Of a DNA stretch of 64,000 bases, positions 37,999-62,958 are shown piece by piece (positions within the stretch are counted from its first letter, which is position 1; each line of letters opens with the position of its first letter). The DNA comes from Eledone cirrhosa (Eukaryota). The notes under the pieces are model-generated. The model ran no database searches and was not told the DNA's origin. It saw nothing but the letters and a program-made list of their open reading frames with translations. The position numbers and the translations under genes are program-made. The stretch is from positions 27,528,001-27,592,000 of the forward strand of contig OZ024741.1 in the NCBI GenBank assembly GCA_964016885.1, given 5' to 3'.

Positions 37999-38349
37999 CT
38001 GTGGAAACAACAACAGCAAAAACAATAACAAGTCAATGAAGTGACACAAGCCAATGAGACATTCTCCACATGGTTACTTAACCTGCTAGAAATAACAATA
38101 AAAATTTCCCTCAAATCACATCCAACTAGATTTTTTTTCTTTGATTTTTAAAATGGTTATATTGAATAATATAGTCCAAGGTATATTATGCCTTAAGAAA
38201 AAGAAAATACAAAAAATGGGTTAATCATGGCTGTTCCAGCCTTTGATGATGGGCTGACTCAGTCACAGCTGACTTTGAGAGAAACAACAAAGACATAATG
38301 AATGTTCTTTTGTGGGATGGAATATATATAGTTGATATGTAGCATTGAT

Positions 38350-39025
38350 CATTATCATCATCGTTTAACGTCTATCTTCCATGCTAACATGGGTTAGACG
38401 GGAATTGTCTCAATTTGAGGCAAGGTTGGTCGGGTGACCATGTCATGCTCGTATAGAACTGTATCTGGCAGGTTTTCTACAGCTGGATGCCCTTCCTAAC
38501 ACCAACCACTTTACAGCGTGGACTGGGTGTTTCTTTGTCATGACACCTACACAACCACTTTACAAAGTGGACTGAGTGTTTCTTGGTCGTGACACCTATA
38601 CAACCACTTTAGTATGGACTGGATGTTCTGTGGTACCAACATAACTTTATAGAGAAAGGGTGGTGTTCGTGGAAGTGGGAGGATGGAGTAGGGGTAGTGG
38701 GTTGGGGTGTATATTTGGTTAGGAGGTGCCTACTGACTGGTTAACTTGTGTACGTAAGGAAGGCGGGTCTTCTGTATTACTGCGTGGTGCCAAAGATCTC
38801 GATCCAGTGACATTGTCTTAGAGAGGTGTGAGTGTGCAAGGTCAGTTTTTATCATGTCATCCCAGGATTTTCTGGGTCTACCTACTCTGTAACTTCCATC
38901 AATTTTGATCGCCCTGCACTTTTTTATACAGCTGTCGTCTTTCATGCGCATCACATGACCATACCAACGTAATCTTCTCTTAAGTAAACAGCACCTGATC
39001 CCTCTTATTCCTAATTTCTCACTTC
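38350..39025 (-). mobile_element. 3' end of an RTE-type LINE (ORF2 C-terminus, 3'UTR and tail)
   Basis: RLRWYGHVMRMKDDSCIKKC...GRPRKSWDD...DRDLW, followed by UTR and a GATGAT tail. Confidence 0.9.
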
Positions 39026-39387
39026 AATCCTTTAGTTACCAACCCAGCCAAAACCAGCTCTGCTTCTATGAAATAAAACCACTCATTATAAAGGTTTCCA
39101 ATTTAAATTAAAATCTTCCAACATAATTTTTTATAGAATTTTAAAGAACCTTACATTAAGTTACTATCTTAGTAATGAAATAATTAATAATTTTAGTAAA
39201 TCAAAATGCTTCATTAATTAAGTAAAATAGAGTGTATTTCATTAGAAATGCAGTCATGAAAGGGTTAACAAGTTTGTTGACATTTCAGGTTGGAATAGTA
39301 GAAAATAAGAAACCTAAATGTATGCATGATGAAGAATTTTACTTTGCAAACAATAGTGTTTCAAGTTGAATTGCATCGGGCAGTAGT

Positions 39388-39820: not shown

Positions 39821-39924
39821 TGGACAGAATGTGATGCAGTCATTTGAGTAACATAGCTACACCAATGTAAAAATAAGCTAGGTAAACATTAAAAATAAGT
39901 ACTAAATTTAATCTCTAATTATTT

Positions 39925-40230: not shown

Positions 40231-40260
40231 TGAGAGAGAGAGAGAGGGGGGGAGAGAGTG

Positions 40261-40320
<60 letters not shown>

Positions 40321-40478: not shown

Positions 40479-43400
40479 CAGATGGCAGAGATGTTGTTGT
40501 TCCAACAGCTAGTCCCAGGTCACAGAGCTCTTGTTTCAACAGCTAGTTCCATATGATAGAGTTCTTGTTTAAACAGCTAGTCCCAGATGACAGAGCTCTT
40601 GTTCCAACAGCTAGTCCCAGATGGCAGAGCTCTTGTTCTTTCAACAGCTAGTCCCAGATGGCAGAGCTCTTGTTCTTTCAACAGCTAGTCCCAGATGGCA
40701 GAGCTTTTGTTCTTTCAACATCTAGTCCAAGAAGACAGAGCTCTTGTTGTTTCAACAGTTAATCCCAGATGACAGAGCTCTTGTTCTTTCAACAGTTAAT
40801 CCCAGATGACAGAGCTCTTGTTTCAACATCTAGTCCCAGATGGCAGAGCTATTGTTTCAACAGCTAGTCCCAGATGAGAGATCTCTTGTTCTTTCAACGG
40901 CTAGTCCCAGATGACAGAGCTCTTGTTTCAACAGCTAGTCCCAGATGACAGAGCTCTTGTTCTTTCAACAGCTAGTCCTAGATGACAGAGCTCTTATTGT
41001 TTCAACAGCTAGTCCCAGATGACAGAGCTCATGTTCTTTAAAAAGCTAGTCCCAGATAACAGAGCTCTTGTTTCAACAGCTAGTCCCAGATGGCAGAGCT
41101 CTTGTTTCAACAGCTAGTACCAGATGACAGAGCTCTTGTTTCAACAGCTAGTCCCAGATGGCAGAGCTCTTGTTTCAACAGCTAGTCCCAGATAGCAGAG
41201 CTCTTGTTGTTTCAACAGCTAGTCCCAGATGGCAGAGCTCTTGTTTCAACAGCTAGTCCCAGATGGGAGAGCTCTCTTTGTTTCAACAGATAGTCCCAGA
41301 TGACAGAGCTCTTGATTCAACAGCTAGTCCCAGATGGCAAAGCTCTTGTTCTTTCAACAGCTAGTCCCAGATGGCAGAGCTCTTGTTTCAACAGCTAGTC
41401 CCAGATGACAGAGCTCTTGTTTCAACAGCTAGTCCCAGATGACAGAGCTCTTGCTCTTATAACATCTAGTCCCAGATGACAGAGCTCTTGTTTCAACAGC
41501 TAGTCCGAGATGACAGAGCTCTTGCTCTTATAACATCTAGTCCCAGATGACAGAGCTCTTGTTTCAACAGCTAGTCCCAGATGACAGAGCTCTTGTTCTT
41601 TCAACAGCTAGTCCCAGATGACAGAGCTCTTGTTTCAACAGCTAGTCCCAGATGACAGAGCTCTTGTTTCAACAGCTAGTCCCAGATGACAGAGCTCTTG
41701 TTCTTTCAACAGCTAGTCCCAGATGACAGAGCTCTTGTTCTTTCAACAGCTAGTCCCAGATGACAGAGCTCTTGTTTCAACAGCTAGTCCCAGATGACAG
41801 AGCTCTTGTTCTTTCAACAGCTAGTCCCAGATGGCAGAGCTCATGTTCTTTCAACAGCTAGTCCCAGATGACAGAGCTCTTGTTTCAACAGCTAGTCGCA
41901 GATGACAGAGCTCTTGTTCTTTCAACAGCTAGTCCCAGATGGCAGAGCTCTTGTTTCAACAGCTAGTCACAGATGACAGAGCTCATGTTCTTTCAACAGC
42001 TAGTCCCAGATGACAGAGCTCTTGTTTCAACAGCTAGTCGCAGATGACAGAGCTCTTGTTCTTTCAACAGCTAGTCCCAGATGGCAGAGCTCTTGTTTCA
42101 ACAGCTAGTCGCAGATGACAGAGCTCTTGTTCTTTCAACATCTAGTCCCAGATGGCAGAGCACTTGTTCTTTCAACAGCTAGTCCCAGATGACAGAGCTC
42201 TTGTTTCAACAGCTAGTCCCAGATGACAGAGCTCTTGTTTCAACAGCTAGTCGCAGATGACAGAGCTCTTGTTCTTTCAACAGCTAGTCCCAGATGACAG
42301 AGCTCTTGTTTCAACATCTAGTCCCAGATGACAGAGCTCTTGTTCTTTCAACAGCTAGTCCCAGATGGCAGAGCTCTTGTTTCAACAGCTAGTCCCAGAT
42401 GGCAGAGCTCTCTTTGTTTCAACAGCTAGTCCCAGATGACAGAGCTCTTGTTTCAACAGCTAGTCCCAGATGACAGAGCTCTTGTTCTTTCAACAGCTAG
42501 TCCCAGATGACAGAGCTCTTGTTCTTTCAACAGCTAGTCCCAGATGGCAGAGCTCTTGTTTCAACATCTAGTCCCAGATGACAGAGCTCTTGTTCTTTCA
42601 ACAGTTAGTCCCAGATGGCAGAGCTCTTGTTTCAACAGCTAGTCCCAGATGGCAGAGCTCTCTTTGTTTCAACAGCTAGTCCCAGATGACAGAGCTCTTG
42701 TTTCAACAGCTAGTCCCAGATGGCAGAGCTCTTGTTTCAACATCTAGTCCCAGATGACAGAGCTCTTGTTCTTTCAACAGCTAGTCCCAGATGGCAGAGC
42801 TCTTGTTTCAACATCTAGTCCCAGATGACAGAGCTCTTGTTCTTTCAACAGCTAGTCCCAGATGGCAGAGCTCTTGATTCAACAGCTAGTCCCAGATGGC
42901 AGAGCACTTGTTCTTTCAAGAGCTAGTCCCAGATGACAGAGCTCTTGTTCTTTCAACAGCTAGTCCCAGATGGCAGAGCTCTTGTTTCAACAGCTAGTCC
43001 CAGATGACAGAGCACTTGTTCTTTCAACAGCTAGTCCCAGATGACAGAGCTCTTGTTCTTTCAACAGTTAGTCCCAGATGGCAGAGCTCTTGTTTCAACA
43101 GTTAGTCCCAGATGGCAGAGCACTTGTTCTTTCAACAGCTAGTCCCAGATGGCAGAGCACTTGTTCTTTCAACAGCTAGTCCCAGATGGCAGAGCTCTTG
43201 ATTCAACAGCTAGTCCCAGATGACAGAGCTCTTGCTCTCATAACATCTAGTCCCAGATGACAGAGCTCTTGTTCTTTCAACAGCTAGTCCCAGATGACAG
43301 AGCTCTTGTTCTTTCAACAGCTAGTCCCAGATGACAGAGCTTTTGTTTCAACAACTAGTCCCAGATGACAGAGCTCTTGTTTCAACAGCTAGTCCCAGAT

Positions 43401-46400
43401 GGCAGAGCTCTTGTTCTTTCAACAGCTAGTCGCAGATGACAGAGCTCTTGTTCTTTCAACAGCTAGTCCCAGATGACAGAGCTCTTGTTTCAACAGCTAG
43501 TCCCAGATGACAGAGCTCTTGTTCTTTCAACAGCTAGTCCCAGATGGCAAAGCTCTTGTTCTTTCAACAGCTAATCCCAGATGACAGAGCTCTTGTTTCA
43601 GGAGCTAGTCCCAGATGACAGAGGTCTTTTTGTCTCAACAGCTAGTCCCAGATGACAGAGCTCTTGTTTCAACAGCTAGTCCCGGATAACAGAGCTCTTG
43701 TTGTTTCAACAGCTAGTCCCAGATGGCAGAGCTCTTGTTCTTTCAACAGCTAGTCCCAGATGACAGAGCTCTTGTTTCAACATCTAGTCCCAGATGACAG
43801 AACTCATGTTCTTTCAACAGCTAGTCCCAGATGGCAGAGCTCTTGTTTCAACAGCTAGTCCCAGATGACAGAGCTCTTGTTCTTTCAACAGCTAGTCCCA
43901 GATGACAGAGCTCTTGTTCTTTCAACAGCTAGTCCTAGATGACAGAGCTCTTGTTTCAACAGCTAGTCCCAGATGACAGAGCTCTTGTTCTTTCAACAGC
44001 TAGTCCCAGATGACAGAGCTCTTGTTTCAACAGCTAGTCCCAGATGGCAGAGCTCTTGTTCTTTCAACAGTTAGTCCCAGATGACAGAGCTTTTGTTTCA
44101 ATAGCTAGTCCCAGATGACAGAGCTCTTGTTCTTTCAACAGCTAGTCCCAGATGGCAGAGCTCTTGTTCTTTCAACAGCTAGTCCCAGATGGCAGAGCTC
44201 TTGTTTCAACATCTAGTCCCAGATGACAGAGCTCTTGTTTCAACAGCTAGTCCCAGATGGCAGAGCTCTTGTTCTTTCAACAGTTAGTCCCAGATGACAG
44301 AGCTTTTGTTTCAATAGCTAGTCCCAGATGACAGAGCTCTTGTTCTTTCAACAGCTAGTCCCAGATGGCAGAGCTCTTGTTCTTTCAACAGCTAGTCCCA
44401 GATGGCAGAGCTCTTGTTTCAACATCTAGTCCCAGATGACAGAGCTCTTGTTTCAACAGCTAGTCCCAGATGGCAGAGCTCTTGTTTCAACAACTAGTCC
44501 CAGATGACAGAGCTCTTGTTTCAACAGCTAGTCCCAGATGACAGAGCTCTTGTTCTTTCAACAGTTAGTCCCAGATGACAGAGCTTTTGTTTCAACAGCT
44601 AGTCCCAGATGACAGAGCTCTTGTTCTTTCAACAGCTAGTCCCAGATGGCAGAGATCTTGTTCTTTCAACAGCTAGTCCCAGATGACAGAGCTTTTGTTT
44701 CAATAGCTAGTCCCAGATGACAGAGCTCTTGTTCTTTCAACATCTAGTCCCAGATGACAGAGCTCTTGTTCTTTCAACAGTTAGTCCCAGATGACAGAGC
44801 TCTTGTTCATTCAACAGCTAATCCCAGATGACAGAGCTCTTGTTTCAGGAGCTAGTCCCAGATGACAGAGCTCTTTTTGTCTCAACAGCTAGTCCCAGAT
44901 GACAGAGCTCTTGTTTCAACAGCTAGTCCCGGATAACAGAGCTCTTGTTGTTTCAACAGCTAGTCCCAGATGGCAGAGCTCTTGTTCTTTCAACAGTTAG
45001 TCCCAGATGACAGAGCTCTTGTTTCAACAGCTAGTCCCAGATGGCAGAGCTCTCTTTGTTTCAACAGCTAGTCCCAGATGACAGAGCTCTTGTTTCAACA
45101 GCTAGTCCCAGATGACAGAGCTCTTGTTCTTTCAACAGCTAGTCCCAGATGACAGAGCTCTTGTTTCAACATCTAGTCCCAGATGACAGAGCTCTTGTTC
45201 TTTCAACAGCTAGTCCCAGATGACAGAGCTCTTGATTCAAAAGCTAGTCCCAGATGGCAAAGCTCTTGTTCTTTCAACAGCTAGTCCCAGATGGCAGAGC
45301 TCTTGATTCAACAGCTAGTCCCAGATGACAGAGCTCTTGCTCTTATAACATCTAGTCCCAGATGACAGAGCTCTTGTTCTTTCAACAGCTAGTCCCAGAT
45401 GACAGAGCTCTTGTTCTTTCAACAGCTAGTCCCAGATGACAGAGCTCTTGTTTCAACAACTAGTCCCAGATGACAGAGCTCTTGTTTCAACAGCTAGTCC
45501 CAGATGGCAGAGCTCTTTTTCTTTCAACAGCTAGTCCCAGATGTCAGAGCTCCTGTTTCAACAGCTAGTCCCAGATGACAGAGCTCATGTTCTTTCAACA
45601 GCTAGTCCCAGATGACAGAGCTCTTGTTTCAACAGCTAGTCGCAGATGACAGAGCTATTGTTCTTTCAACAGCTAGTCCCAGATGGCAGAGCTCTTGTTT
45701 CAACAGCTAGTCGCAGATGACAGAGCTCTTGTTCTTTCAACATCTAGTCCCAGATGGCAGAGCACTTGTTCTTTCAACAGCTAGTCCCAGATGACAGAGC
45801 TCTTGTTTCAACAGCTAGTCCCAGATGACAGAGCTCTTGTTTCAACAGCTAGTCGCAGATGACAGAGCTCTTGTTCTTTCAACAGCTAGTCCCAGATGAC
45901 AGAGCTCTTGTTTCAACATCTAGTCCCAGATGACAGAGCTCTTGTTCTTTCAACAGCTAGTCCCAGATGGCAGAGCTCTTGTTTCAACAGCTAGTCCCAG
46001 ATGGCAGAGCTCTCTTTGTTTCAACAGCTAGTCCCAGATGACAGAGCTCTTGTTTCAACAGCTAGTCCCAGATGACAGAGCTCTTGTTCTTTCAACAGCT
46101 AGTCCCAGATGACAGAGCTCTTGTTCTTTCAACAGCTAGTCCCAGATGGCAGAGCTCTTGTTTCAACATCTAGTCCCAGATGACAGAGCTCTTGTTCTTT
46201 CAACAGCTAGTCCCAGATGGCAGAGCTCTTGTTTCAACATCTAGTCCCAGATGACAGAGCTCTTGTTCTTTCAACAGCTAGTCCCAGATGGCAGAGCTCT
46301 TGATTCAACAGCTAGTCCCAGATGGCAGAGCACTTGTTCTTTCAAGAGCTAGTCCCAGATGACAGAGCTCTTGTTCTTTCAACAGCTAGTCCCAGATGGC

Positions 46401-49400
46401 AGAGCTCTTGTTTCAACAGCTAGTCCCAGATGACAGAGCACTTGTTCTTTCAACAGCTAGTCCCAGATGACAGAGCTCTTGTTCTTTCAACAGCTAGTCC
46501 CAGATGGCAGAGCACTTGTTCTTTCAACAGCTAGTCCCAGATGGCAGAGCACTTGTTCTTTCAACAGCTAGTCCCAGATGGCAGAGCTCTTGATTCAACA
46601 GCTAGTCCCAGATGACAGAGCTCTTGCTCTCATAACATCTAGTCCCAGATGACAGAGCTCTTGTTCTTTCAACAGCTAGTCCCAGATGACAGAGCTTTTG
46701 TTTCAACAACTAGTCCCAGATGACAGAGCTCTTGTTTCAACAGCTAGTCCCAGATGGCAGAGCTCTTGTTCTTTCAACAGCTAGTCCCAGATGACAGAGC
46801 TCTTGTTTCAACAGCTAGTCCCAGATGACAGAGCTCTTGTTCTTTCAACAGCTAGTCCCAGATGGCAGAGCTCTTGTTCTTTCAACAGCTAGTCGCAGAT
46901 GACAGAGCTCTTGTTCTTTCAACAGCTAGTCCCAGATGACAGAGCTCTTGTTTCAACAGCTAGTCCCAGATGACAGAGCTCTTGTTCTTTCAACAGCTAG
47001 TCCCAGATGGCAGAGCTCTTGTTCTTTCAACAGCTAATCCCAGATGACAGAGCTCTTGTTTCAGGAGCTAGTCCCAGATGACAGAACTCATGTTCTTTCA
47101 ACAGCTAGTCCCAGATGGCAGAGCTCTTGTTTCAACAGCTAGTCCCAGATGACAGAGCTCTTGTTTCAACAGCTAGTCCCGGATAACAGAGCTCTTGTTG
47201 TTTCAACAGCTAGTCCCAGATGGCAGAGCTCTTGTTCTTTCAACAGCTAGTCCCAGATGACAGAGCTCTTGTTTCAACATCTAGTCCCAGATGACAGAAC
47301 TCATGTTCTTTCAACAGCTAGTCCCAGATGGCAGAGCTCTTGTTTCAACAGCTAGTCCCAGATGACAGAGCTCTTGTTCTTTCAACAGCTAGTCCCAGAT
47401 GACAGAGCTCTTGTTCTTTCAACAACTAGTCCTAGATGACAGAGCTCTTGTTTCAACAGCTAGTCCCAGATGACAGAGCTCTTGTTCTTTCAACAGCTAG
47501 TCCCAGATGACAGAGCTCTTGTTTCAACAGCTAGTCCCAGATGGCAGAGCTCTTGTTCTTTCAACAGTTAGTCCCAGATGACAGAGCTTTTGTTTCAATA
47601 GCTAGTCCCAGATGACAGAGCTCTTGTTCTTTCAACAGCTAGTCCCAGATGGCAGAGCTCTTGTTCTTTAAATAGCTAGTCCCAGATGGCAGAGCTCTTG
47701 TTTCAACATCTAGTCCCAGATGACAGAGCTCTTGTTTCAACAGCTAGTCCCAGATGGCAGAGCTCTTGTTCTTTCAACAGTTAGTCCCAGATGACAGAGC
47801 TTTTGTTTCAATAGCTAGTCCCAGATGACAGAGCTCTTGTTCTTTCAACAGCTAGTCCCAGATGGCATAGCTCTTGTTCTTTCAACAGCTAGTCCCAGAT
47901 GGCAGAGCTCTTGTTTCAACATCTAGTCCCAGATGACAGAGCTCTTGTTTCAACAGCTAGTCCCAGATGGCAGAGCTCTTGTTTCAACAACTAGTCCCAG
48001 ATGACAGAGCTCTTGTTTCAACAGCTAGTCCCAGATGACAGAGCTTTTGTTTCAATAGCTAGTCCCAGATGACAGAGCTCTTGTTCTTTCAACAGCTAGT
48101 CCCAGATGGCAGAGCTCTTGTTCTTTCAACAGTTAGTCCCAGATGACAGAGCTCTTGTTCATTCAACAGCTAATCCCAGATGACAGAGCTCTTGTTTCAG
48201 GAGCTAGTCCCAGATGACAGAGCTCTTTTTGTCTCAACAGCTAGTCCCAGATGACAGAGCTCTTGTTTCAACAGCTAGTCCCGGATAACAGAGCTCTTGT
48301 TGTTTCAACAGCTAGTCCCAGATGGCAGAGCTCTTGTTCTTTCAACAGTTAGTCCCAGATGACAGAGCTCTTGTTTCAACAGCTAGTCCCAGATGGCAGA
48401 GCTCTCTTTGTTTCAACAGCTAGTCCCAGATGACAGAGCTCTTGTTTCAACAGCTAGTCCCAGATGACAGAGCCCTTGTTCTTTCAACAGCTAGTCCCAG
48501 ATGACAGAGCTCTTGTTTCAACATCTAGTCCCAGATGACAGAGCTCTTGTTCTTACAACAGCTAGTCCCAGATGACAGAGCTCTTGTTCTTTCAACAGCT
48601 AGTCCCAGATGGCAGAGCACTTGTTCTTTCAACAGCTAGTCCCAGATGGCAGAGCACTTGTTCTTTCAACAGCTAGTCCCAGATGGCAGAGCTCTTGATT
48701 CAACAGCTAGTCCCAGATGACAGAGCTCTTGCTCTCATAACATCTAGTCCCAGATGACAGAGCTCTTGTTCTTTCAACAGCTAGTCCCAGATGACAGAGC
48801 TCTTGTTCTTTCAACAGCTAGTCCCAGATGACAGAGCTTTTGTTTCAACAACTAGTCCCAGATGACAGAGCTCTTGTTTCAACAGCTAGTCCCAGATGGC
48901 AGAGCTCTTGTTCTTTCAACAGCTAGTCGCAGATGACAGAGCTCTTGTTCTTTCAACAGCTAGTCCCAGATGACAGAGCTCTTGTTTCAACAGCTAGTCC
49001 CAGATGACAGAGCTCTTGTTCTTTCAACAGCTAGTCCCAGATGGCAGAGCTCTTGTTCTTTCAACAGCTAATCCCAGATGACAGAGCTCTTGTTTCAGGA
49101 GCTAGTCCCAGATGACAGAGGTCTTTTTGTCTCAACAGCTAGTCCCAGATGACAGAGCTCTTGTTTCAACAGCTAGTCCCGGATAACAGAGCTCTTGTTG
49201 TTTCAACAGCTAGTCCCAGATGGCAGAGCTCTTGTTCTTTCAACAGCTAGTCCCAGATGACAGAGCTCTTGTTTCAACATCTAGTCCCAGATGACAGAAC
49301 TCATGTTCTTTCAACAGCTAGTCCCAGATGGCAGAGCTCTTGTTTCAACAGCTAGTCCCAGATGACAGAGCTCTTGTTCTTTCAACAGCTAGTCCCAGAT

Positions 49401-52400
49401 GACAGAGCTCTTGTTCTTTCAACAGCTAGTCCTAGATGACAGAGCTCTTGTTTCAACAGCTAGTCCCAGATGACAGAGCTCTTGTTCTTTCAACAGCTAG
49501 TCCCAGATGACAGAGCTCTTGTTTCAACAGCTAGTCCCAGATGGCAGGGCTCTTGTTTCAACAACTAGTCCCAGATGACAGAGCTCTTGTTTCAACAGCT
49601 AGTCCCAGATGACAGAGCTCTTGTTCTTTCAACAGTTAGTCCCAGATGACAGAGCTTTTGTTTCAACAGCTAGTCCCAGATGACAGAGCTCTTGTTCTTT
49701 CAACAGCTAGTCCCAGATGGCAGAGATCTTGTTCTTTCAACAGCTAGTCCCAGATGACAGAGCTTTTGTTTCAATAGCTAGTCCCAGATGACAGAGCTCT
49801 TGTTCTTTCAACATCTAGTCCCAGATGACAGAGCTCTTGTTCTTTCAACAGTTAGTCCCAGATGACAGAGCTCTTGTTCATTCAACAGCTAATCCCAGAT
49901 GACAGAGCTCTTGTTTCAGGAGCTAGTCCCAGATGACAGAGCTCTTTTTGTCTCAACAGCTAGTCCCAGATGACAGAGCTCTTGTTTCAACAGCTAGTCC
50001 CGGATAACAGAGCTCTTGTTGTTTCAACAGCTAGTCCCAGATGGCAGAGCTCTTGTTCTTTCAACAGTTAGTCCCAGATGACAGAGCTCTTGTTTCAACA
50101 GCTAGTCCCAGATGGCAGAGCTCTCTTTGTTTCAACAGCTAGTCCCAGATGACAGAGCTCTTGTTTCAACAGCTAGTCCCAGATGACAGAGCTCTTGTTC
50201 TTTCAACAGCTAGTCCCAGATGACAGAGCTCTTGTTTCAACATCTAGTCCCAGATGACAGAGCTCTTGTTCTTTCAACAGCTAGTCCCAGATGACAGAGC
50301 TCTTGATTCAAAAGCTAGTCCCAGATGGCAAAGCTCTTGTTCTTTCAACAGCTAGTCCCAGATGGCAGAGCTCTTGATTCAACAGCTAGTCCCAGATGAC
50401 AGAGCTCTTGCTCTTATAACATCTAGTCCCAGATGACAGAGCTCTTGTTCTTTCAACAGCTAGTCCCAGATGACAGAGCTCTTGTTCTTTCAACAGCTAG
50501 TCCCAGATGACAGAGCTCTTGTTTCAACAACTAGTCCCAGATGACAGAGCTCTTGTTTCAACAGCTAGTCCCAGATGGCAGAGCTCTTTTTCTTTCAACA
50601 GCTAGTCCCAGATGACAGAGCTCCTGTTTCAACAGCTAGTCCCAGATGACAGAGCTCATGTTCTTTCAACAGCTAGTCCCAGATGACAGAGCTCTTGTTT
50701 CAACAGCTAGTCGCAGATGACAGAGCTATTGTTCTTTCAACAGCTAGTCCCAGATGGCAGAGCTCTTGTTTCAACAGCTAGTCGCAGATGACAGAGCTCT
50801 TGTTCTTTCAACATCTAGTCCCAGATGGCAGAGCACTTGTTCTTTCAACAGCTAGTCCCAGATGACAGAGCTCTTGTTTCAACAGCTAGTCCCAGATGAC
50901 AGAGCTCTTGTTTCAACAGCTAGTCCCAGATGACAGAGCTCTTGTTCTTTCAACAGCTAGTCCCAGATGGCAGAGCTCTTGTTTCAACAGCTAGTCCCAG
51001 ATGGCAGAGCTCTCTTTGTTTCAACAGCTAGTCCCAGATGACAGAGCTCTTGTTTCAACAGCTAGTCCCAGATGACAGAGCTCTTGTTCTTTCAACAGCT
51101 AGTCCCAGATGACAGAGCTCTTGTTCTTTCAACAGCTAGTCCCAGATGGCAGAGCTCTTGTTTCAACATCTAGTCCCAGATGACAGAGCTCTTGTTCTTT
51201 CAACAGCTAGTCCCAGATGGCAGAGCTCTTGTTTCAACATCTAGTCCCAGATGACAGAGCTCTTGTTCTTTCAACAGCTAGTCCCAGATGGCAGAGCTCT
51301 TGATTCAACAGCTAGTCCCAGATGGCAGAGCACTTGTTCTTTCAAGAGCTAGTCCCAGATGACAGAGCTCTTGTTCTTTCAACAGCTAGTCCCAGATGGC
51401 AGAGCTCTTGTTTCAACAGCTAGTCCCAGATGACAGAGCACTTGTTCTTTCAACAGCTAGTCCCAGATGACAGAGCTCTTGTTCTTTCAACAGCTAGTCC
51501 CAGATGGCAGAGCACTTGTTCTTTCAACAGCTAGTCCCAGATGGCAGAGCACTTGTTCTTTCAACAGCTAGTCCCAGATGGCAGAGCTCTTGATTCAACA
51601 GCTAGTCCCAGATGACAGAGCTCTTGCTCTCATAACATCTAGTCCCAGATGACAGAGCTCTTGTTCTTTCAACAGCTAGTCCCAGATGACAGAGCTTTTG
51701 TTTCAACAACTAGTCCCAGATGACAGAGCTCTTGTTTCAACAGCTAGTCCCAGATGGCAGAGCTCTTGTTCTTTCAACAGCTAGTCGCAGATGACAGAGC
51801 TCTTGTTCTTTCAACAGCTAGTCCCAGATGACAGAGCTCTTGTTTCAACAGCTAGTCCCAGATGACAGAGCTCTTGTTCTTTCAACAGCTAGTCCCAGAT
51901 GGCAGAGCTCTTGTTCTTTCAACAGCTAATCCCAGATGACAGAGCTCTTGTTTCAGGAGCTAGTCCCAGATGACAGAGGTCTTTTTGTCTCAACAGCTAG
52001 TCCCAGATGACAGAGCTCTTGTTTCAACAGCTAGTCCTGGATAACAGAGCTCTTGTTGTTTCAACAGCTAGTCCCAGATGGCAGAGCTCTTGTTCTTTCA
52101 ACAGCTAGTCCCAGATGACAGAGCTCTTGTTTCAACATCTAGTCCCAGATGACAGAACTCATGTTCTTTCAACAGCTAGTCCCAGATGGCAGAGCTCTTG
52201 TTTCAACAGCTAGTCCCAGATGACAGAGCTCTTGTTTCAACATCTAGTCTCAGATAACAGAGCTCTTGTTCTTTCAACAGCTAGTCCCAGATGACAGAGC
52301 TCTTGTTTCAACAGTTAGTCCCAGATGACAGAGCTCTTGTTCTTTCAACAGTTAGTCCCAGATGACAGAGCTCTTGATGTTTCAATATCTAGTCCCAGAT

Positions 52401-55400
52401 AACAGAGCTCTTGTTGTTTCAACAGCTAGTCCCAGATGGCAGAGCTCTTGTTGTTTCAACAGCTAGTCCCAGATGACAGAGCTCTTGTTCTTTCAACAGC
52501 TAGTCCCAGATGACAGAGCTCTTGTTCTTTCAACAGCTAGTCCCAGATGACAGAGCTCTTGTTCTTTCAACAGCTAGTCCCAGATGGCAGAGCTCTTGTT
52601 CTTTCAACAGCTAGTCCCAGATGACAGAGCTCTTGTTTCAACAGTTAGTCCCAGATGACAGAGCTCTTGTTTCAACAGCTAGTCCCAGATGGCAGAGCTC
52701 TTGTTCTTTCAACAGCTAGTCCCAGATGACAGAGCTCTTGTTCTTTCAACAGCTAGTCCCAGATGGCAGAGCTCTTGTTCTTTCAACAGCTAGTCCCAGA
52801 TGACAGAGCTCTTGTTTCAACAGTTAGTCCCAGATGACAGAGCACTTGTTCTTTCAACAGTTAGTCCCAGATGACAGAGCACTTGTTCTTTCAACGGTTA
52901 GTCCCAGATGACAGAGCACTTGTTCTTTCAACAGTTAGTCGCAGATGACAGAGCTCTTGTTTCAACAGCTAGTCCCAGATGACAGAGCACTTGTTCTTTC
53001 AACAGTTAGTCCCAGATGACAGAGCACTTGTTCTTTCAACAGTTAGTCGCAGATGACAGAGCTCTTGTTTCAACAGCTAGTCCCAGATGACAGAGCTCTT
53101 GTTCTTTCAACAGCTAGTCCCGGATGACAGAGCTCTTGTTTCAACAGCTAGTCCCAGATGACAGAGCTCTTGTTTCAACAGCTAGTCCCAGATGACAGAG
53201 CTCTTGTTTCAACAGCTAGTCCCGGATAACAGAGCACTTGTTCTTTCAACAGCTCGTCCCAGATGACAGAGCTCTTGTTTCAACAGCTAGTCCCAGATGA
53301 CAGAGCTCTTGTTTCAACAGCTAGTCCCAGATGACAGAGCTCTTGTTCTTTCAACAGTTAGTCCCAGATGACAGAGCTCTTGTTTCAACAGCTAGTCCCA
53401 GATGGCAGAGCTCTTGTTTCAACAGCTAGTCCCAGATGGCAGAGCTCTTGTTCTTTCAACAGCTTGTCCCAGATGACAGAGCTCTTGTTCTTTCAACAGT
53501 TAGTCCCAGATGACAGAGCTCTTGTCGTTTCAACAGCTAGTCCCAGATGACAGAGCATTTGTTTCAACAGTTAGTCCCAGATGACAGAGCACTTGTTCTT
53601 TCAACAGTTAGTCCCAGATGACAGAGCTCTTGTTGTTTCAACAGCTAGTCCTAGATGACAGAACTCTTGTTGTTTCAACAGCTAGTCCCAGATGACAGAG
53701 CTCTTGTTCTTTCAACAGCTAGTCCCAGATGGCAGAGCCCTTGTCGTTTCAACAGCTAGTCCCAGATGGCAGAGCTCTTGTTCTTTCAACAGCTAGTCCC
53801 AGATGGCAGAGCTCTTGTTGTTTCAACAGCTAGTCCCAGATGGCAGAGCTCTTGTTGTTTCAACAGCTAGTCCCAGATGACAGAGCTCTTGTTTCAACAG
53901 CTAGTCCCAGATGACAGAGCTCTTGTTCTTTCAACAGCTAGTCCCAGATGGCAGAGCTCTTGTTCTTTCAACAGCTAGTCCCAGATGACAGAGCTCTTGT
54001 TTCAACAGCTAGTCCCAGATGACAGAGCTCTTGTTTCAACAGCTAGTCGCAGATGACAGAGCTCTTGTTTCAACAGCTAGTCCCAGATGACAGAGCTCTT
54101 GTTTCAACAGCTAGTCCCAGATGACAGAGCTCTTGTTTCAACAGCTAGTCGCAGATGACAGAGCTCTTGTTTCAACAGCCAGTCCCAGATGACAGAGCTC
54201 TTGTTTCAACAGCTAGTCCCAGATGACAGAGCTCTTGTTATTCCAACAGCTAGTCCCAGATGACAGAGCTCTTGTTTCAACAGCTAGTCCCAGATGACAG
54301 AGCTCTTGTTTCAACAGCTAGTCCCAGATGACAGAGCTCTTGTTTCAACAGCTAGTCCCAGATGACAGAGCACTTGTTGTTTCAACAGTTAGTCCCAGAT
54401 GACAGAGCTCTTGTTTCAACAGCTAGTCCCAGATGACAGAGCTCTTGTTCTTTCAACAGCTAGTCCCAGATGACAGAGCTCTTGTTTCAACAGCTAGTCC
54501 CAGATGACAGAGCTCTTGTTTCAACAGCTAGTCCCAGATGGCAGAGCACTTGTTGTTTCAACAGTTAGTCCCAGATGACAGAGCTCTTGTTTCAACAGCT
54601 AGTCCCAGATGGCAGAGCTCTTGTTGTTTCAACAGCTAGTCCCAGATGACAGAGCACTTGTTGTTTCAACAGTTAGTCCCAGATGACAGAGCTCTTGTTT
54701 CAACAGCTAGTCCCAGATGACAGAGCTCTTGTTGTTTCAACAGCTAGTCCCAGATGACAGAGCTCTTGTTTCAACAGCTAGTCCCATATGACAGAGCTCT
54801 TGTTTCAACAGCTAGTCCCAGATGGCAGAGCACTTGTTGTTTCAACAGTTAGTCCCAGATGACAGAGCTCTTGTTTCAACAGCTAATCCCAGATGACAGA
54901 GCACTTGTTCTTTCAACAGCTAGTCCCAGATGGCAGAGCACTTGTTCTTTCAACAGCTAGTCCCAGATGGCAAAGCTCTTGTTATTTCCACAGCTAGTCC
55001 CAGATGACAGAGCTCTTGTTGTTTCAACAACTAGTCCCAGATGACAGAGCTCTTGTTTCAACATCTAGTCCCAGATGGCAAAGCTCTTGTTGTTTCAACA
55101 GCTAGTCCCAGATGACAGAGCTCTTGTTCTTTCAACATCTAGTGCCAGATCACAGAGCTCTTGTTTCAACAGCTAGTCCCAGATGACAGAGCTCTTGTTG
55201 TTTCAACAGCTAGTCCCAGATGACAGAGCTCTTGTTTCAACATCTAGTCCCAGATAACAAAGCTCTTGTTCTTTCAACAGCTAGTCCCAGATGACAGAGC
55301 TCTTGTTTCAACAGTTAGTCCCAGATGACAGAGCTCTTGTTCTTTCAACAGCTAGTCCCAGATGGCAGAGCTCTTGTTGTTTCAACAGCTAGTCCCAGAT

Positions 55401-58400
55401 GGCAGAGCTCTTGTTGTTTCAACAGCTAGTCCCAGATGACAGAGCTCTTGTTTCAACAGCTAGTCCCAGATGACAGAGCTCTTGTTCTTTCAACAGCTAG
55501 TCCCAGATGGCAGAGCTCTTGTTCTTTGAACAGCTAGTCCCAGATGACAGAGCTCTTGTTTCAACAGCTAGTCCCAGATGACAGAGCTCTTGTTTCAACA
55601 GCTAGTCGCAGATGACAGAGCTCTTGTTTCAACAGCTAGTCCCAGATGACAGAGCTCTTGTTTCAACAGCTAGTCCCAGATGACAGAGCTCTTGTTTCAA
55701 CAGCTAGTCGCAGATGACAGAGCTCTTGTTTCAACAGTTAGTCCCAGATGACAGAGCTCTTGTTCTTTCAACAGCTAGTCCCAGATGGCAGAGCTCTTGT
55801 TGTTTCAACAGCTAGTCCCAGATGGCAGAGCTCTTGTTGTTTCAAAAGCTAGTCCCAGATGACAGAGCTCTTGTTTCAACAGCTAGTCCCAGATGACAGA
55901 GCTCTTGTTCTTTCAACAGCTAGTCCCAGATGGCAGAGCTCTTGTTCTTTGAACAGCTAGTCCCAGATGACAGAGCTCTTGTTTCAACAGCTAGTCCCAG
56001 ATGACAGAGCTCTTGTTTCAACAGCTAGTCGCAGATGACAGAGCTCTTGTTTCAACAGCTAGTCCCAGATGACAGAGCTCTTGTTTCAACAGCTAGTCCC
56101 AGATGACAGAGCTCTTGTTTCAACAGCTAGTCGCAGATGACAGAGCTCTTGTTTCAACAGCCAGTCCCAGATGACAGAGCTCTTGTTTCAACAGCTAGTC
56201 CCAGATGACAGAGCTCTTGTTATTCCAACAGCTAGTCCCAGATGACAGAGCTCTTGTTTCAACAGCTAGTCCCAGATGACAGAGCTCTTGTTTCAACAGC
56301 TAGTCCCAGATGACAGAGCTCTTGTTTCAACAGCTAGTCCCAGATGACAGAGCACTTGTTGTTTCAACAGTTAGTCCCAGATGACAGAGCTCTTGTTTCA
56401 ACAGCTAGTCCCAGATGACAGAGCTCTTGTTCTTTCAACAGCTAGTCCCAGATGACAGAGCTCTTGTTTCAACAGCTAGTCCCAGATGACAGAGCTCTTG
56501 TTTCAACAGCTAGTCCCAGATGGCAGAGCACTTGTTGTTTCAACAGTTAGTCCCAGATGACAGAGCTCTTGTTTCAACAGCTAGTCCCAGATGGCAGAGC
56601 TCTTGTTGTTTCAACAGCTAGTCCCAGATGACAGAGCACTTGTTGTTTCAACAGTTAGTCCCAGATGACAGAGCTCTTGTTTCAACAGCTAGTCCCAGAT
56701 GACAGAGCTCTTGTTGTTTCAACAGCTAGTCCCAGATGACAGAGCTCTTGTTTCAACAGCTAGTCCCATATGACAGAGCTCTTGTTTCAACAGCTAGTCC
56801 CAGATGGCAGAGCACTTGTTGTTTCAACAGTTAGTCCCAGATGACAGAGCTCTTGTTTCAACAGCTAATCCCAGATGACAGAGCACTTGTTCTTTCAACA
56901 GCTAGTCCCAGATGGCAGAGCACTTGTTCTTTCAACAGCTAGTCCCAGATGGCAAAGCTCTTGTTATTTCCACAGCTAGTCCCAGATGACAGAGCTCTTG
57001 TTGTTTCAACAACTAGTCCCAGATGACAGAGCTCTTGTTTCAACATCTAGTCCCAGATGGCAAAGCTCTTGTTGTTTCAACAGCTAGTCCCAGATGACAG
57101 AGCTCTTGTTCTTTCAACATCTAGTGCCAGATCACAGAGCTCTTGTTTCAACAGCTAGTCCCAGATGACAGAGCTCTTGTTGTTTCAACAGCTAGTCCCA
57201 GATGACAGAGCTCTTGTTTCAACATCTAGTCCCAGATAACAAAGCTCTTGTTCTTTCAACAGCTAGTCCCAGATGACAGAGCTCTTGTTTCAACAGTTAG
57301 TCCCAGATGACAGAGCTCTTGTTCTTTCAACAGCTAGTCCCAGATGGCAGAGCTCTTGTTGTTTCAACAGCTAGTCCCAGATGGCAGAGCTCTTGTTGTT
57401 TCAACAGCTAGTCCCAGATGACAGAGCTCTTGTTTCAACAGCTAGTCCCAGATGACAGAGCTCTTGTTCTTTCAACAGCTAGTCCCAGATGGCAGAGCTC
57501 TTGTTCTTTGAACAGCTAGTCCCAGATGACAGAGCTCTTGTTTCAACAGCTAGTCCCAGATGACAGAGCTCTTGTTTCAACAGCTAGTCGCAGATGACAG
57601 AGCTCTTGTTTCAACAGCTAGTCCCAGATGACAGAGCTCTTGTTTCAACAGCTAGTCCCAGATGACAGAGCTCTTGTTTCAACAGCTAGTCGCAGATGAC
57701 AGAGCTCTTGTTTCAACAGCCAGTCCCAGATGACAGAGCTCTTGTTTCAACAGCTAGTCCCAGATGACAGAGCTCTTGTTATTCCAACAGCTAGTCCCAG
57801 ATGACAGAGCTCTTGTTTCAACAGCTAGTCCCAGATGACAGAGCTCTTGTTTCAACAGCTAGTCCCAGATGACAGAGCTCTTGTTTCAACAGCTAGTCCC
57901 AGATGACAGAGCACTTGTTGTTTCAACAGTTAGTCCCAGATGACAGAGCTCTTGTTTCAACAGCTAGTCCCAGATGACAGAGCTCTTGTTCTTTCAACAG
58001 CTAGTCCCAGATGACAGAGCTCTTGTTTCAACAGCTAGTCCCAGATGACAGAGCTCTTGTTTCAACAGCTAGTCCCAGATGGCAGAGCACTTGTTGTTTC
58101 AACAGTTAGTCCCAGATGACAGAGCTCTTGTTTCAACAGCTAGTCCCAGATGGCAGAGCTCTTGTTGTTTCAACAGCTAGTCCCAGATGACAGAGCACTT
58201 GTTGTTTCAACAGTTAGTCCCAGATGACAGAGCTCTTGTTTCAACAGCTAGTCCCAGATGACAGAGCTCTTGTTGTTTCAACAGCTAGTCCCAGATGACA
58301 GAGCTCTTGTTTCAACAGCTAGTCCCATATGACAGAGCTCTTGTTTCAACAGCTAGTCCCAGATGGCAGAGCACTTGTTGTTTCAACAGTTAGTCCCAGA

Positions 58401-61400
58401 TGACAGAGCTCTTGTTTCAACAGCTAATCCCAGATGGCAAAGCTCTTGTTATTTCCACAGCTAGTCCCAGATGACAGAGCTCTTGTTGTTTCAACAACTA
58501 GTCCCAGATGACAGAGCTCTTGTTTCAACATCTAGTCCCAGATGGCAAAGCTCTTGTTGTTTCAACAGCTAGTCCCAGATGACAGAGCTCTTGTTCTTTC
58601 AACATCTAGTGCCAGATCACAGAGCTCTTGTTTCAACAGCTAGTCCCAGATGACAGAGCTCTTGTTGTTTCAACAGCTAGTCCCAGATGACAGAGCTCTT
58701 GTTTCAACATCTAGTCCCAGATAACAAAGCTCTTGTTCTTTCAACAGCTAGTCCCAGATGACAGAGCTCTTGTTTCAACAGTTAGTCCCAGATGACAGAG
58801 CTCTTGTTCTTTCAACAGTTAGTCCCAGATGACAGAGCTCTTGATGTTTCAATATCTAGTCCCAGATGACAGAGCTCTTGTTTCAACAGCTAGTCCCAGA
58901 TGGCAGAGCTCTTGTTGTTTCAACAGCTAGTCCCAGATGGCAGAGCTCTTGTTCTTTCAACAGCTAGTCCCAGATGACAGAGCTCTTGTTTCAACAGTTA
59001 GTCCCAGATGACAGAGCACTTGTTCTTTCAACAGTTAGTCCCAGATGACAGAGCACTTGTTCTTTCAACAGTTAGTCCCAGATGACAGAGCACTTGTTCT
59101 TTCAACTGTTAGTCGCAAATGACAGAGCTCTTGTTTCAACAGCTAGTCCCGGATAACAGAGCTCTTGTTCTTTCAACAGTTAGTCCCAGATGGCAGAGCT
59201 CTTGTTTCAACAGTTAGTCCCAGATGACAGAGCACTTGTTCTTTCAACAGTTAGTCCCAGATGACAGAGCACTTGTTCTTTCAACAGTTAGTCGCAGATG
59301 ACAGAGCTCTTGTTTCAACAGCTAGTCCCGGATAACAGAGCACTTGTTCTTTCAACAGCTAGTCCCAGATGACAGAGCTCTTGTTTCAACAGCTAGTCCC
59401 AGATGACAGAGCTCTTGTTCCAACAGCTAGTCCCAGATGACTGAGCTCTTGTTCCAACAGCTAGTCCCAGATGACAGAGCTCTTGTTTCAACAGCTAGTC
59501 CCAGATAACAGAGCTCTTGTTCTTTCAACAGCTAGTCCCAGATGACTGAGCTCTTGTTCCAACAGCTAGTCCCAGATGATAGAGCTCTTGTTTCAACAGC
59601 TAGTCCCAGATGACAAAGCTCTTGTTTCAACAGCTAGTCCCAGATGACAGAGCTTTTGTTGTTCCAATAGCTAGTCCCAGATGACAGAGCTCTTGTTCCA
59701 ACAGCTAGTCCCAGATGACAGAGCTCTTGTTCCAACAGCTAGTCCCAGATGACAGAGCTCTTGTTCCAACAGCTAGTCCCAGATGACAAAGCTCTTGTTT
59801 CAACAGCTAGTCCCAGATGACAGAGCACTTGTTGTTCCAATAGCTAGTCCCAAATGACAGAACTCTTGTTCCAACAGCTAGTCCCAGATGACAGAGCTCT
59901 TGTTCCAACAGCTAGTCCCAGATGACAGAGCTCTTGTTCTAACAGCTAGTCCCAGATGACAGAGCTCTTGTTCCAACAGCTAGTCCCAGATGACAGAGCT
60001 TTTGTTTCAACAGCTAGTCCCAGATGACAGAGCTTTTGTTTCAACAGCTAGTCCCAGATGGCAGAGCACTTGTTGTTTCAACAGTTAGTCCCAGATGACA
60101 GAGCTCTTGTTTCAACAGCTAGTCCCAGATGGCAGAGCTCTTGTTGTTTCAACAGCTAGTCCCAGATGACAGAGCACTTGTTGTTTCAACAGTTAGTCCC
60201 AGATGACAGAGCTCTTGTTTCAACAGCTAGTCCCAGATGACAGAGCTCTTGTTGTTTCAACAGCTAGTCCCAGATGACAGAGCTCTTGTTTCAACAGTTA
60301 GTCCCAGATGACAGAGCTCTTGTTTCAACAGCTAGTCCCAGATGGCAGAGCACTTGTTGTTTCAACAGTTAGTCCCAGATGACAGAGCTCTTGTTTCAAC
60401 AGCTAATCCCAGATGACAGAGCACTTGTTCTTTCAACAGCTAGTCCCAGATGGCAGAGCACTTGTTCTTTCAACAGCTAGTCCCAGATGGCAAAGCTCTT
60501 GTTCTTTCCACAGCTAGTCCCAGATGACAGAGCTCTTGTTGTTTCAACAACTAGTCCCAGATGACAGAGCTCTTGTTTCAACATCTAGTCCCAGATGGCA
60601 AAGCTCTTGTTGTTTCAACAGCTAGTCCCAGATGACAGAGCTCTTGTTCTTTCAACATCTAGTGCCAGATCACAGAGCTCTTGTTTCAACAGCTAGTCCC
60701 AGATGACAGAGCTCTTGTTGTTTCAACAGCTAGTCCCAGATGACAGAGCTCTTGTTTCAACATCTAGTCCCAGATAACAAAGCTCTTGTTCTTTCAACAG
60801 CTAGTCCCAGATGACAGAGCTCTTGTTTCAACAGTTAGTCCCAGATGACAGAGCTCTTGTTCTTTCAACAGTTAGTCCCAGATGACAGAGCTCTTGATGT
60901 TTCAATATCTAGTCCCAGATGACAGAGCTCTTGTTTCAACAGCTAGTCCCAGATGGCAGAGCTCTTGTTGTTTCAACAGCTAGTCCCAGATGGCAGAGCT
61001 CTTGTTCTTTCAACAGCTAGTCCCAGATGACAGAGCTCTTGTTTCAACAGTTAGTCCCAGATGACAGAGCACTTGTTCTTTCAACAGTTAGTCCCAGATG
61101 ACAGAGCACTTGTTCTTTCAACAGTTAGTCCCAGATGACAGAGCACTTGTTCTTTCAACTGTTAGTCGCAGATGACAGAGCTCTTGTTTCAACAGCTAGT
61201 CCCGGATAACAGAGCTCTTGTTCTTTCAACAGTTAGTCCCAGATGGCAGAGCTCTTGTTTCAACAGTTAGTCCCAGATGACAGAGCACTTGTTCTTTCAA
61301 CAGTTAGTCCCAGATGACAGAGCACTTGTTCTTTCAACAGTTAGTCGCAGATGACAGAGCTCTTGTTTCAACAGCTAGTCCCGGATTACAGAGCACTTGT

Positions 61401-62487
61401 TCTTTCAACAGCTAGTCCCAGATGACAGAGCTCTTGTTTCAACAGCTAGTCCCAGATGACAGAGCTCTTGTTCCAACAGCTAGTCCCAGATGACTGAGCT
61501 CTTGTTCCAACAGCTAGTCCCAGATGACAGAGCTCTTGTTTCAACAGCTAGTCCCAGATAACAGAGCTCTTGTTCTTTCAACAGCTAGTCCCAGATGACT
61601 GAGCTCTTGTTCCAACAGCTAGTCCCAGATGATAGAGCTCTTGTTTCAACAGCTAGTCCCAGATGACAAAGCTCTTGTTTCAACAGCTAGTCCCAGATGA
61701 CAGAGCTTTTGTTGTTCTAATAGCTAGTCCCAGATGACAGAGCTCTTGTTCCAACAGCTAGTCCCAGATGACAGAGCTCTTGTTCCAACAGCTAGTCCCA
61801 GATGACAGAGCTCTTGTTCCAACAGCTAGTCCCAGATGACAAAGCTCTTGTTTCAACAGCTAGTCCCAGATGACAGAGCACTTGTTGTTCCAATAGCTAG
61901 TCCCAAATGACAGAACTCTTGTTCCAACAGCTAGTCCCAGATGACAGAGCTCTTGTTCCAACAGCTAGTCCCAGATGACAGAGCTCTTGTTCTAACAGCT
62001 AGTCCCAGATGACAGAGCTCTTGTTCCAACAGCTAGTCCCAGATGACAGAGCTTTTGTTTCAACAGCTAGTCCCAGATGACAGAGCTCTTGTTCCAATAG
62101 CTAGTCCCAGATGACAGAGCTTTTGTTTCAACAGCTAGTCCCAGATGACAGAGCTCTTGTTCCAACAGCTAGTCCCAGATGACAGAGCTCTTGTTCTAAC
62201 AGCTAGTCCCAGATGACAGAGCTCTTGTTCCAACAGCTAGTCCCAGATGACAGAGCTTTTGTTTCAACAGCTAGTCCCAGATGACAGAGCTTTTGTTTCA
62301 ACAGCTAGTCCCAGATGACAGAGCTCTTGCTCCAACAGCTAGTCCCAGATGACAGAGCTCTTGTTCTAACAGCTAGTCCTAGATGACAGAGCTCTTGTTC
62401 CAACAGCTAGTCCCAGATGGCGGAGCTCTTGTTGTTTCAACAGCTAGTCCCAGATGGCGGAGCTCTTGCTCCAACAGCTAGTCCCAA
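40479..62487. repeat. Satellite array B, 34-bp monomer AGCTCTTGTTTCAACAGCTAGTCCCAGATGACAG with a 37-bp variant (+TCT or +TGT), intronic
   Basis: About 22 kb of continuous head-to-tail monomers (roughly 620 by length divided by unit size). Both ends lie inside the window. Confidence 0.99.
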
Positions 62488-62958
62488 ACTAGAACTAGCT
62501 GTTGAAACATACTCTACTTTCCCAAGTATCGACTACTCTGTTGAGTAGTGGTTTAACTAGTTTTAAATTGGTTCTATCCTGATTTAACTTGATCAATATT
62601 GTGATGTCTAAAACTTAACTTAACAAAGGTTCTTCTGATATAAATTTATGATGAAAGGTTTCTAGCTAAATATAAACATTTTAAAATAAGCAAATTTGTG
62701 TTGTAGAACCAGTGTCAGTTTGAAGTGGTTTGGTATAAGAACGGTTAATTGATTAGACCCTTCCCGAAAAGTTGTGGCCTTGTGATTAAGTTAGGAATGG
62801 TCCCACATTTTAGAGGAGTATATAAGTTGAGAGAGAATCAAGTCCAGTACTAAACTGGAACCTCATTTATTGGCCTCAATCTATCCAACGTTCTAATGAC
62901 TCTGCTAGTTCGCCATCTTATTTTACATTAGCAAATGAATAAAAGGTGCATTACAAAC

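What the first reader, a model, noticed from the sequence alone, without database searches (positions are those of the whole stretch)
37999..62958. A complete 22-kb satellite array fills one intron of a ciliary/flagellar gene
Seen: exons 62959-63051 and 37900-37998 join in frame (…YENLL|VPQYYK…) across a 24,960-bp intron, about 88% of which is satellite B. The other introns are 1.1-6.1 kb, and a second array of at least 17.6 kb starts ~2.8 kb past the stop codon. Established: Drosophila Y-linked axonemal dynein genes (kl-3, kl-5) have satellite-filled giant introns that need dedicated RNA-binding factors. Inference: a possible smaller-scale parallel, in which each pre-mRNA carries ~600 copies of a 34/37-nt motif that could delay transcription or scaffold proteins. 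It may instead be the neutral state of many introns in this genome.
Basis: partly seen in the sequence, partly recalled or inferred. Interest (0 to 1): 0.75.

Follow-up and report, generated by a model that had tools for sequence, protein, structure and literature searches.

The report
Private satellite swelling a CFAP221 intron
A 22,000-base tandem repeat found nowhere else in this genome fills most of one predicted intron of an intact cilia gene (CFAP221); it likely grew in place from a small hairpin-shaped mobile repeat and is likely tolerated rather than functional, because a non-cilia gene in the same genome holds a nine-times larger block while the sampled parts of the dynein genes hold none.

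Summary
The gene is CFAP221/PCDP1, a central-pair protein, not a dynein: 22 exons, 850 aa, all introns GT-AG, profile E=1e-212. The junction 62959>37998 aligns without a gap to homologues; no RNA run was available. Intron 15 is 24,960 bp, 88% one 34/37-bp array. The array is private (116 of 118 exact monomers genome-wide). Its monomer matches one arm of a dispersed ~200-bp hairpin repeat whose tail still abuts the array. Gene-class test: arrays of 2 kb or more lay in the sampled windows of 0 of 17 dynein heavy-chain loci against 9 of 18 HECT-ligase loci (p=0.001; not significant at 5 kb). One HECT gene has a 202-kb intron that is 99.9% one array. 4 of 60 random 10-kb windows are wholly tandem repeat. 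This scan noted the same pattern before, on other DNA of this genome, in many housekeeping and some ciliary genes. Verdict: an ordinary, small example of a genome-wide habit.

The parts
62959..63051 (-). CFAP221 exon 15 (31 codons, phase 0/0); its donor GTTTGT scores lowest of the gene's 21 donors
37999..62958 (-). Predicted intron 15, 24,960 bp, GT-AG; the gene's median intron is 1,593 bp
40479..62486 (.). Satellite B: 617 monomers of 34/37 nt, mean 1.3 differences from the modal unit, with internal block duplications of 0.9-2.0 kb at 99.1-99.6% identity; private to this locus
62487..62587 (+). Remnant of the likely seed element: loop, truncated second arm (inverted partial monomer) and ~80-bp tail of a dispersed ~200-bp hairpin repeat
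37900..37998 (-). CFAP221 exon 16
33499..33717 (-). CFAP221 exon 17 (poorly conserved region; AAG acceptor; the least certain boundary)
32194..32328 (-). CFAP221 exon 18
30749..30849 (-). CFAP221 exon 19
29479..30426 (.). 48-bp tandem array (20 copies) in intron 19, a different unit from satellite B; the same unit forms a 2.4-kb array in intron 11
27827..27898 (-). CFAP221 exon 20
26590..26688 (-). CFAP221 exon 21
20369..20495 (-). CFAP221 exon 22 to the stop codon; AATAAA at 20271 and 20248
2..17590 (.). Right end of satellite A (32-bp unit, 77.5 kb in all, private: 238 of 238 exact monomers lie here); downstream of the predicted poly(A) signals

Best explanation
Satellite B is a private tandem array inside predicted intron 15 of an intact CFAP221 gene; it likely grew in place from one arm of a small hairpin-shaped dispersed repeat and is likely transcribed, spliced out and tolerated without a function of its own. 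Shown: the gene model, the array's extent and privacy, the monomer's match to the element arm, the element tail joined to the array's right end, near-identical kb-scale block duplications inside the array, and larger arrays in a non-ciliary gene. Inferred: a copy of the element sat in the intron; a 37-nt stretch of its first arm was duplicated head to tail; a 3-nt deletion gave the 34-nt form; unequal exchange or repair-linked copying of kb-sized blocks then took it to about 620 units. The cost would be small: 22 kb more transcription (roughly 10-20 min at recalled rates of 1-3 kb/min), and the transcribed strand has no strong splice-like site, no AATAAA/ATTAAA and no frame open beyond 36 codons.
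For: Gene: 22 exons, 850 aa, one stop, 21 of 21 introns GT-AG, E=1.1e-212 against a profile of 56 homologues. Seed homologue P0005 matches PDB chain 9ijj_L, named CFAP221, at E=3.8e-58. Privacy: 116 of 118 exact 34-mers and 20 of 20 exact 58-nt tandem probes lie in this array. Origin: 62505-62587 matches all 20 fetched dispersed loci; 17 of 20 carry a monomer-like arm scoring 28 or more, against 2 of 600 random stretches; one copy folds as a long hairpin, z=-6.9, 0 of 200 shuffles as stable; at least 176 exact copies of a 29-nt tail probe exist; copy L030 has grown a different, 52-bp array from the same arm. Growth: ten block duplications of 0.9-2.0 kb with 8-10 mismatches. Background: mean tandem content 23%, with 4 of 60 random 10-kb windows wholly tandem and 11 of 60 holding an array of 2 kb or more. 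Gene class: 0 of 17 dynein loci against 9 of 18 HECT loci, p=0.001. A HECT gene has a 202,036-bp intron with a 201.8-kb 62-bp array between profile positions 139 and 141. Five other CFAP221 introns hold arrays of other units.
Against: No RNA data, so neither the junction nor read-through is shown. The intron-15 donor is the weakest of the gene's 21 (leave-one-out score 4.1). The element's outer end was not found at the array's left edge, so the seed is seen on one side only. The 20 element copies were chosen from hits to a query that included the last monomers, which may inflate 17 of 20. The gene-class test is small: two 10-kb windows per locus, 3' parts only, chromosome position not matched, only one HECT locus confirmed as intronic, and not significant at 5 kb (0 of 17 vs 2 of 18, p=0.49). 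Unchecked scan notes report giant satellite introns in ciliary genes too (AK7, CCDC42, CCDC61), so mild enrichment in non-dynein ciliary genes is not excluded. Array length rests on one assembly.
Confidence: 0.85

Rival explanations
1. Small-scale Y-loop parallel: the array is kept because it delays CFAP221 transcription or scaffolds RNA-binding proteins in spermatocytes.
For: CFAP221 is a motile-cilium gene (PMC11651342, listing and abstract start). The pre-mRNA would carry about 620 near-identical units, 67 of them with ACUAAC, recalled as a branch-point/STAR-protein motif.
Against: The gene spans 80 kb against at least 4.3 Mb for kl-3, which is transcribed over about 90 h (PMC6508621 Introduction). 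The same Introduction notes that loop formation seems tied to Y linkage, not to the gene. Dynein heavy-chain loci here show no array of 2 kb or more in 34 of 34 windows. A non-ciliary HECT gene has a nine-times larger array. The sense RNA folds only slightly better than shuffles (z=-1.6, 10 of 200 as stable).
Confidence: 0.05
2. The array came ready-made, inserted from another site or carried by the mobile element, instead of growing here.
For: The element family is dispersed and at least one other copy holds an internal array (L030). Two exact monomers lie elsewhere in the assembly, place not seen.
Against: No second tandem of this unit was found: 20 of 20 exact 58-nt tandem probes are in this array. 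Only 1 of 20 fetched copies had a long array from the arm, and with another unit.
Confidence: 0.04
3. The array is real but its assembled length is wrong (collapsed or over-expanded), or the gene is not spliced across it as modelled.
For: Near-identical kb blocks can mislead assemblers. The donor is weak. No reads span the array here.
Against: No N and a continuous variant pattern with 116 distinct monomer types. The frame is intact over 22 exons and ungapped against homologues at this junction. Contigs from one DNA-like sample cover exon 15 and its flank without difference (possibly the assembly's own sample, so not independent).
Confidence: 0.06

Closest known systems
Satellites grown from MITE-like or foldback elements (Xstir and miDNA4 of Xenopus, Tetris of Drosophila virilis, 'intermediate' Helitron arrays of Crassostrea gigas; PMC12628747, passages read)
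   Same: [quoted passage not shown]
   Different: The element here is unclassified: a ~120-bp palindrome plus an ~85-bp tail, often beside TA or CA microsatellite, with no target duplication or transposase partner identified. The unit comes from the palindrome arm itself.
Intronic 'sequence stuttering' on chicken dot chromosomes (PMC12954441; abstract and part 1 of 2 of one Results section read; lead from scan note e1-10329506)
   Same: Locally expanded motifs of tens of bases, a different one in each intron, with coding exons intact.
   Different: Here it lies on a 416-Mb chromosome-scale contig, the array is more regular and longer, and it derives from a dispersed repeat, not from an exon edge. 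Length polymorphism between individuals was not tested.
Intron gigantism of Drosophila Y-loop genes kl-3 and kl-5 (PMC6508621; Introduction and passages read)
   Same: An axonemal gene with a satellite-filled intron that would be transcribed.
   Different: kl-3 is Y-linked, at least 4.3 Mb, over 99% intron, filled with simple pentamer satellites and dependent on Blanks/Heph. This gene is 80 kb with one 22-kb private 34/37-bp array, is not a dynein, and the sampled dynein loci here are array-poor.
[quoted passage not shown]
   Same: Full-length orthologue-like protein of 850 aa, colinear with a 906-position profile.
   Different: The region encoded by exon 17 is diverged. No cephalopod homologue was returned by my searches.

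Membership tests
CFAP221/PCDP1 | Full-length colinear similarity to named CFAP221 proteins | tested here: met
   E=1.1e-212 to a profile of 56 homologues, many named CFAP221-like; P0005 to 9ijj_L E=3.8e-58
CFAP221/PCDP1 | Intact reading frame with canonical splice sites | tested here: met
   22 exons, 2,553 nt, one stop, 21 of 21 introns GT-AG
Y-loop-type intron gigantism | Introns of hundreds of kb to Mb; locus over 99% non-coding | tested here: not met
   Largest intron 25 kb; span 79.7 kb, 96.8% intron
Y-loop-type intron gigantism | Filled by simple satellites such as AATAT or AAGAC | tested here: not met
   Complex 34/37-bp unit, private to the locus
Y-loop-type intron gigantism | Concentrated in sperm axonemal genes | tested here: not met
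   0 of 17 dynein loci vs 9 of 18 HECT loci with arrays of 2 kb or more in sampled windows; small sample, 3' parts only
Y-loop-type intron gigantism | Linkage to a non-recombining sex chromosome | not tested
   Contig C2, 416 Mb; sex linkage not examined
Y-loop-type intron gigantism | Spermatocyte loop and dedicated RNA-binding proteins | not testable with these tools
   Needs FISH and genetics
Element-derived satellite (MITE or foldback route) | Monomer homologous to a piece of a dispersed element | tested here: met
   17 of 20 copies vs 2 of 600 random stretches; alignments
Element-derived satellite (MITE or foldback route) | Element remains joined to the array | tested here: met
   Right edge only: loop, part of second arm and tail at 62487-62587
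MITE (for the seed element itself) | Terminal inverted repeats with a target-site duplication and an autonomous partner | tested here: inconclusive
   The palindrome lies at one end and an unpaired tail at the other; microsatellite flanks hide any duplication; no partner sought; no Rfam match
Avian-type intron stuttering | Different local expansions in separate introns, exons intact | tested here: met
   6 of 21 introns hold arrays of 0.7 kb or more, of five unit types
Avian-type intron stuttering | Intron length varies among individuals | not testable with these tools
   One assembly; short-read contigs of one sample only

The most novel reading that the evidence does not exclude
A hairpin-element-derived array was domesticated: the nascent CFAP221 RNA carries about 620 units, 67 with ACUAAC, that gather STAR/branch-point-type proteins into a locus-specific RNA body in spermatocytes and time the making of this central-pair protein, a miniature Y-loop with a private monomer.
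Probability: 0.05. Interest if true: 0.7.

Novelty: new member of a known kind. Interest (0 to 1): 0.22.

Why it matters
On its own it matters little: it is a small case of something this genome does in many genes. It adds two usable things. First, a direct if small test of whether satellite introns favour axonemal genes, which came out negative for dynein heavy chains. Second, another seed for these arrays, a ~200-bp hairpin repeat that has produced at least two different units. The wider open question is how this animal transcribes and splices across 20-200-kb private satellite introns; larger loci, such as the 202-kb HECT intron, are better test cases than this one.

Tried and rejected
1. 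Junction reads: no RNA holder listed; the three listed runs are contigs of one sample and behave like DNA. This is no evidence either way on expression. 2. Direct protein searches with single exons found nothing: Pfam with 6 exons, no family over cut-off; homologue searches with exon 17 and exon 2; PDB with exons 16 and 19; exon 18 gave only E=0.76. The profile route worked. 3. Orientation filter: satellite B has no strong splice-like site on the transcribed strand but 8.2 acceptor-like and 3.0 donor-like sites per kb on the other. I tested whether arrays in or near genes are generally oriented this way: 11 lower on sense, 12 higher, 7 ties of 30, p=1.0. Rejected; the matrix came from only 21 sites, and L149, L121 and L122 were left out as repeats of an array or gene already counted. 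4. Structured RNA: z=-1.6 for 300 nt of the sense strand; no Rfam match in 5 element loci. 5. Hidden exon or coding repeat in the array: longest open frame 36 codons on the gene strand. 6. One search had exon 19 off by one base; corrected. The null used another query than the headline count; redone. The megablast for internal blocks returned nothing; redone by diagonals. 7. The two exact monomers outside the array were not located. 8. Literature: two searches for cephalopod intronic satellites listed no paper that describes them by title or abstract start; none of those papers was read in full and no supplements were seen. 9. Scan look-ups near this place and by the flank sequence returned nothing. 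10. Neighbouring genes beyond satellite A were not identified (ORFs listed, not scanned).
Full report
1. Observation. The window is G000:C2:27528001-27592000 in a 3.0-Gb assembly; C2 is 416 Mb. The animal is likely an octopod cephalopod; that label comes from earlier scan notes and my recall of the repeats, and I did not test it. TRF finds satellite A at 2-17590 and satellite B at 40479-62486. On the minus strand, 63051-62959 and 37998-37900 are phase-0 exons with AG and GT ends that join in frame. The intron is 24,960 bp and the array fills 88.2%. Satellite A runs on for 77.5 kb in all.

2. The gene. Exon 18 found seven small or partial homologues among 8 hits; one, P0005, matches PDB chain 9ijj_L, named CFAP221, at E=3.8e-58 and pulled 115 relatives, many named CFAP221-like. 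A profile of 56 of them, scanned over 264 kb, hit 15 minus-strand stretches in order. The completed model has 22 exons over 79.7 kb, 850 codons, a single stop, 21 of 21 GT-AG introns and E=1.1e-212 (corrected in 64). The exon 15/16 junction falls inside an ungapped block of the alignment, so no exon is missing in the array. [quoted passage not shown] Splicing is inferred: no RNA holder was listed. The intron-15 donor is the weakest of the 21.

3. The array. It holds 617 delimited monomers, 319 of 37 nt and 298 of 34 nt, in 116 variants, on average 1.3 differences from the modal unit. Ten internal block duplications of 0.9-2.0 kb differ at only 8-10 bases, which points to recent growth by kb-scale copying. 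It is private: 116 of 118 exact monomers and 20 of 20 exact 58-nt tandem probes in the assembly lie here. Satellite A is private too, 238 of 238. On the transcribed strand the array has no AATAAA or ATTAAA, no frame open beyond 36 codons and no site reaching the lower quartile of the gene's own splice sites.

4. Origin. The right flank, 62505-62587, belongs to a dispersed repeat: 1,213 first-look candidates, 39 scored, and at least 176 exact copies of a 29-nt probe. In 20 fetched copies the element is a palindrome of about 120 bp followed by a tail of about 85 bp, often beside TA or CA microsatellite; one copy folds with z=-6.9. The 37-nt monomer aligns to one arm in 17 of 20 copies at a score reached by 2 of 600 random stretches; the copies were picked from hits to a query that included the last monomers, so the share may be inflated. 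At this locus the last monomer runs on into the loop, a truncated second arm and the tail. The outer end of the element was not found at the left edge, which abuts a piece of another dispersed repeat. Copy L030 has grown a different 52-bp array (16 units) from the same arm, between two inverted tails. This is the known route from short inverted-repeat elements to satellites (PMC12628747, passages). I could not classify the element.

5. Is it special to a ciliary gene? Within CFAP221, introns 3, 6, 8, 11 and 19 hold arrays of 0.7-5.3 kb with other units. Of 60 random 10-kb windows drawn from 12 contigs of known length (2.17 of 3.0 Gb), mean tandem content is 23%, 11 hold an array of 2 kb or more, and 4 are wholly tandem (95% interval 2-16%). 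I then took two 10-kb windows upstream of the domain hit in each of 17 dynein heavy-chain loci and 18 HECT-ligase loci. No dynein window, 0 of 34, held an array of 2 kb; 11 of 36 HECT windows did. By locus this is 0 of 17 against 9 of 18, p=0.001; at 5 kb it is 0 of 17 against 2 of 18, p=0.49. 31 of 34 dynein windows held an ORF matching another dynein locus under a loose filter, and 4 of 5 such ORFs tested hit dynein Pfam families. The 17 include one near-identical pair and probably the cytoplasmic dyneins, which I did not separate; only 3' parts were sampled; HECT windows were not all shown to be intronic. One was followed up: at C3:222,805,144-223,007,179 a 202,036-bp GT-AG intron lies between HECT profile positions 139 and 141, and a 62-bp array fills 201.8 kb of it. 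Unchecked notes of this scan report the same in VPS15, SRA1, LHPP, unc79, APLF, SLC22 and ALDH5A1, and also in the ciliary genes AK7, CCDC42 and CCDC61; I did not test those loci.

6. Mechanism. Most likely (0.85): local growth from an element copy, tolerated because the intron still splices and the added transcription time is minutes (rate recalled). The Y-loop reading gets 0.05. kl-3 spans at least 4.3 Mb, is transcribed over about 90 h and needs Blanks and Heph, and the authors note that loop formation appears tied to Y linkage rather than to the gene (PMC6508621, Introduction and passages). The pattern is closer to the intronic stuttering described on chicken dot chromosomes (PMC12954441, abstract and part of one Results section), a comparison I took from an earlier scan note. 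My idea that arrays survive only in the splice-inert orientation failed: 11 against 12 with 7 ties.

7. Novelty and score. A new member of known kinds: an element-seeded, locally grown intronic array. Two searches found no paper on cephalopod intronic satellites by title or abstract start, but within this genome the case is small and already much repeated in the scan. Interest 0.22.

Noticed in passing
G000:C3:222805144-223007179 (L189, L150, L149, L171): A HECT E3 ligase gene has a 202,036-bp intron inside its HECT domain, 99.9% filled by one 62-bp array at 95% unit match.
   Followed up: partly
L030:1215-2212 (G000:C4:61.20 Mb): Two inverted tails of the hairpin element enclose 16 copies of a 52-bp unit that contains part of the same arm as satellite B: a second, independent array from this family.
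   Followed up: partly
window 2-17590 and on to G000:C2:27468134: Satellite A is 77.5 kb of a 32-bp unit, private to this place (238 of 238 exact monomers). Its seed, and whether it lies in another gene's intron, were not determined.
   Followed up: partly
L101-L134: Dynein heavy-chain loci look compact and array-poor in their sampled 3' parts: 0 of 34 windows with an array of 2 kb, against 11 of 60 random windows (p=0.006 by window).
   Followed up: partly
G000:C19:6747135 (+) and 6766582 (-); L119-L122: Two dynein heavy-chain loci lie tail to tail about 19 kb apart with identical-looking ORFs: a recent inverted duplication or an assembly duplicate.
   Followed up: no
window 23515-25902 (+): A 796-codon stop-free frame with endonuclease and reverse-transcriptase Pfam hits lies antisense in intron 21.
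   Followed up: no
window 29479-30426; L001 (68440-70862 in window numbering); L103; L161: The same 48-bp unit forms arrays in CFAP221 introns 11 and 19 and at unrelated loci, so some units are shared while satellites A and B are private.
   Followed up: no
L002 and L001, about 64760-65600 in window numbering: Intron 13 contains two long inverted segments visible in the printed sequence.
   Followed up: no
G000:C23:21619258-21620911: A 45-bp tandem array made from a piece of the common dispersed repeat that also lies at window 63100-63200.
   Followed up: no
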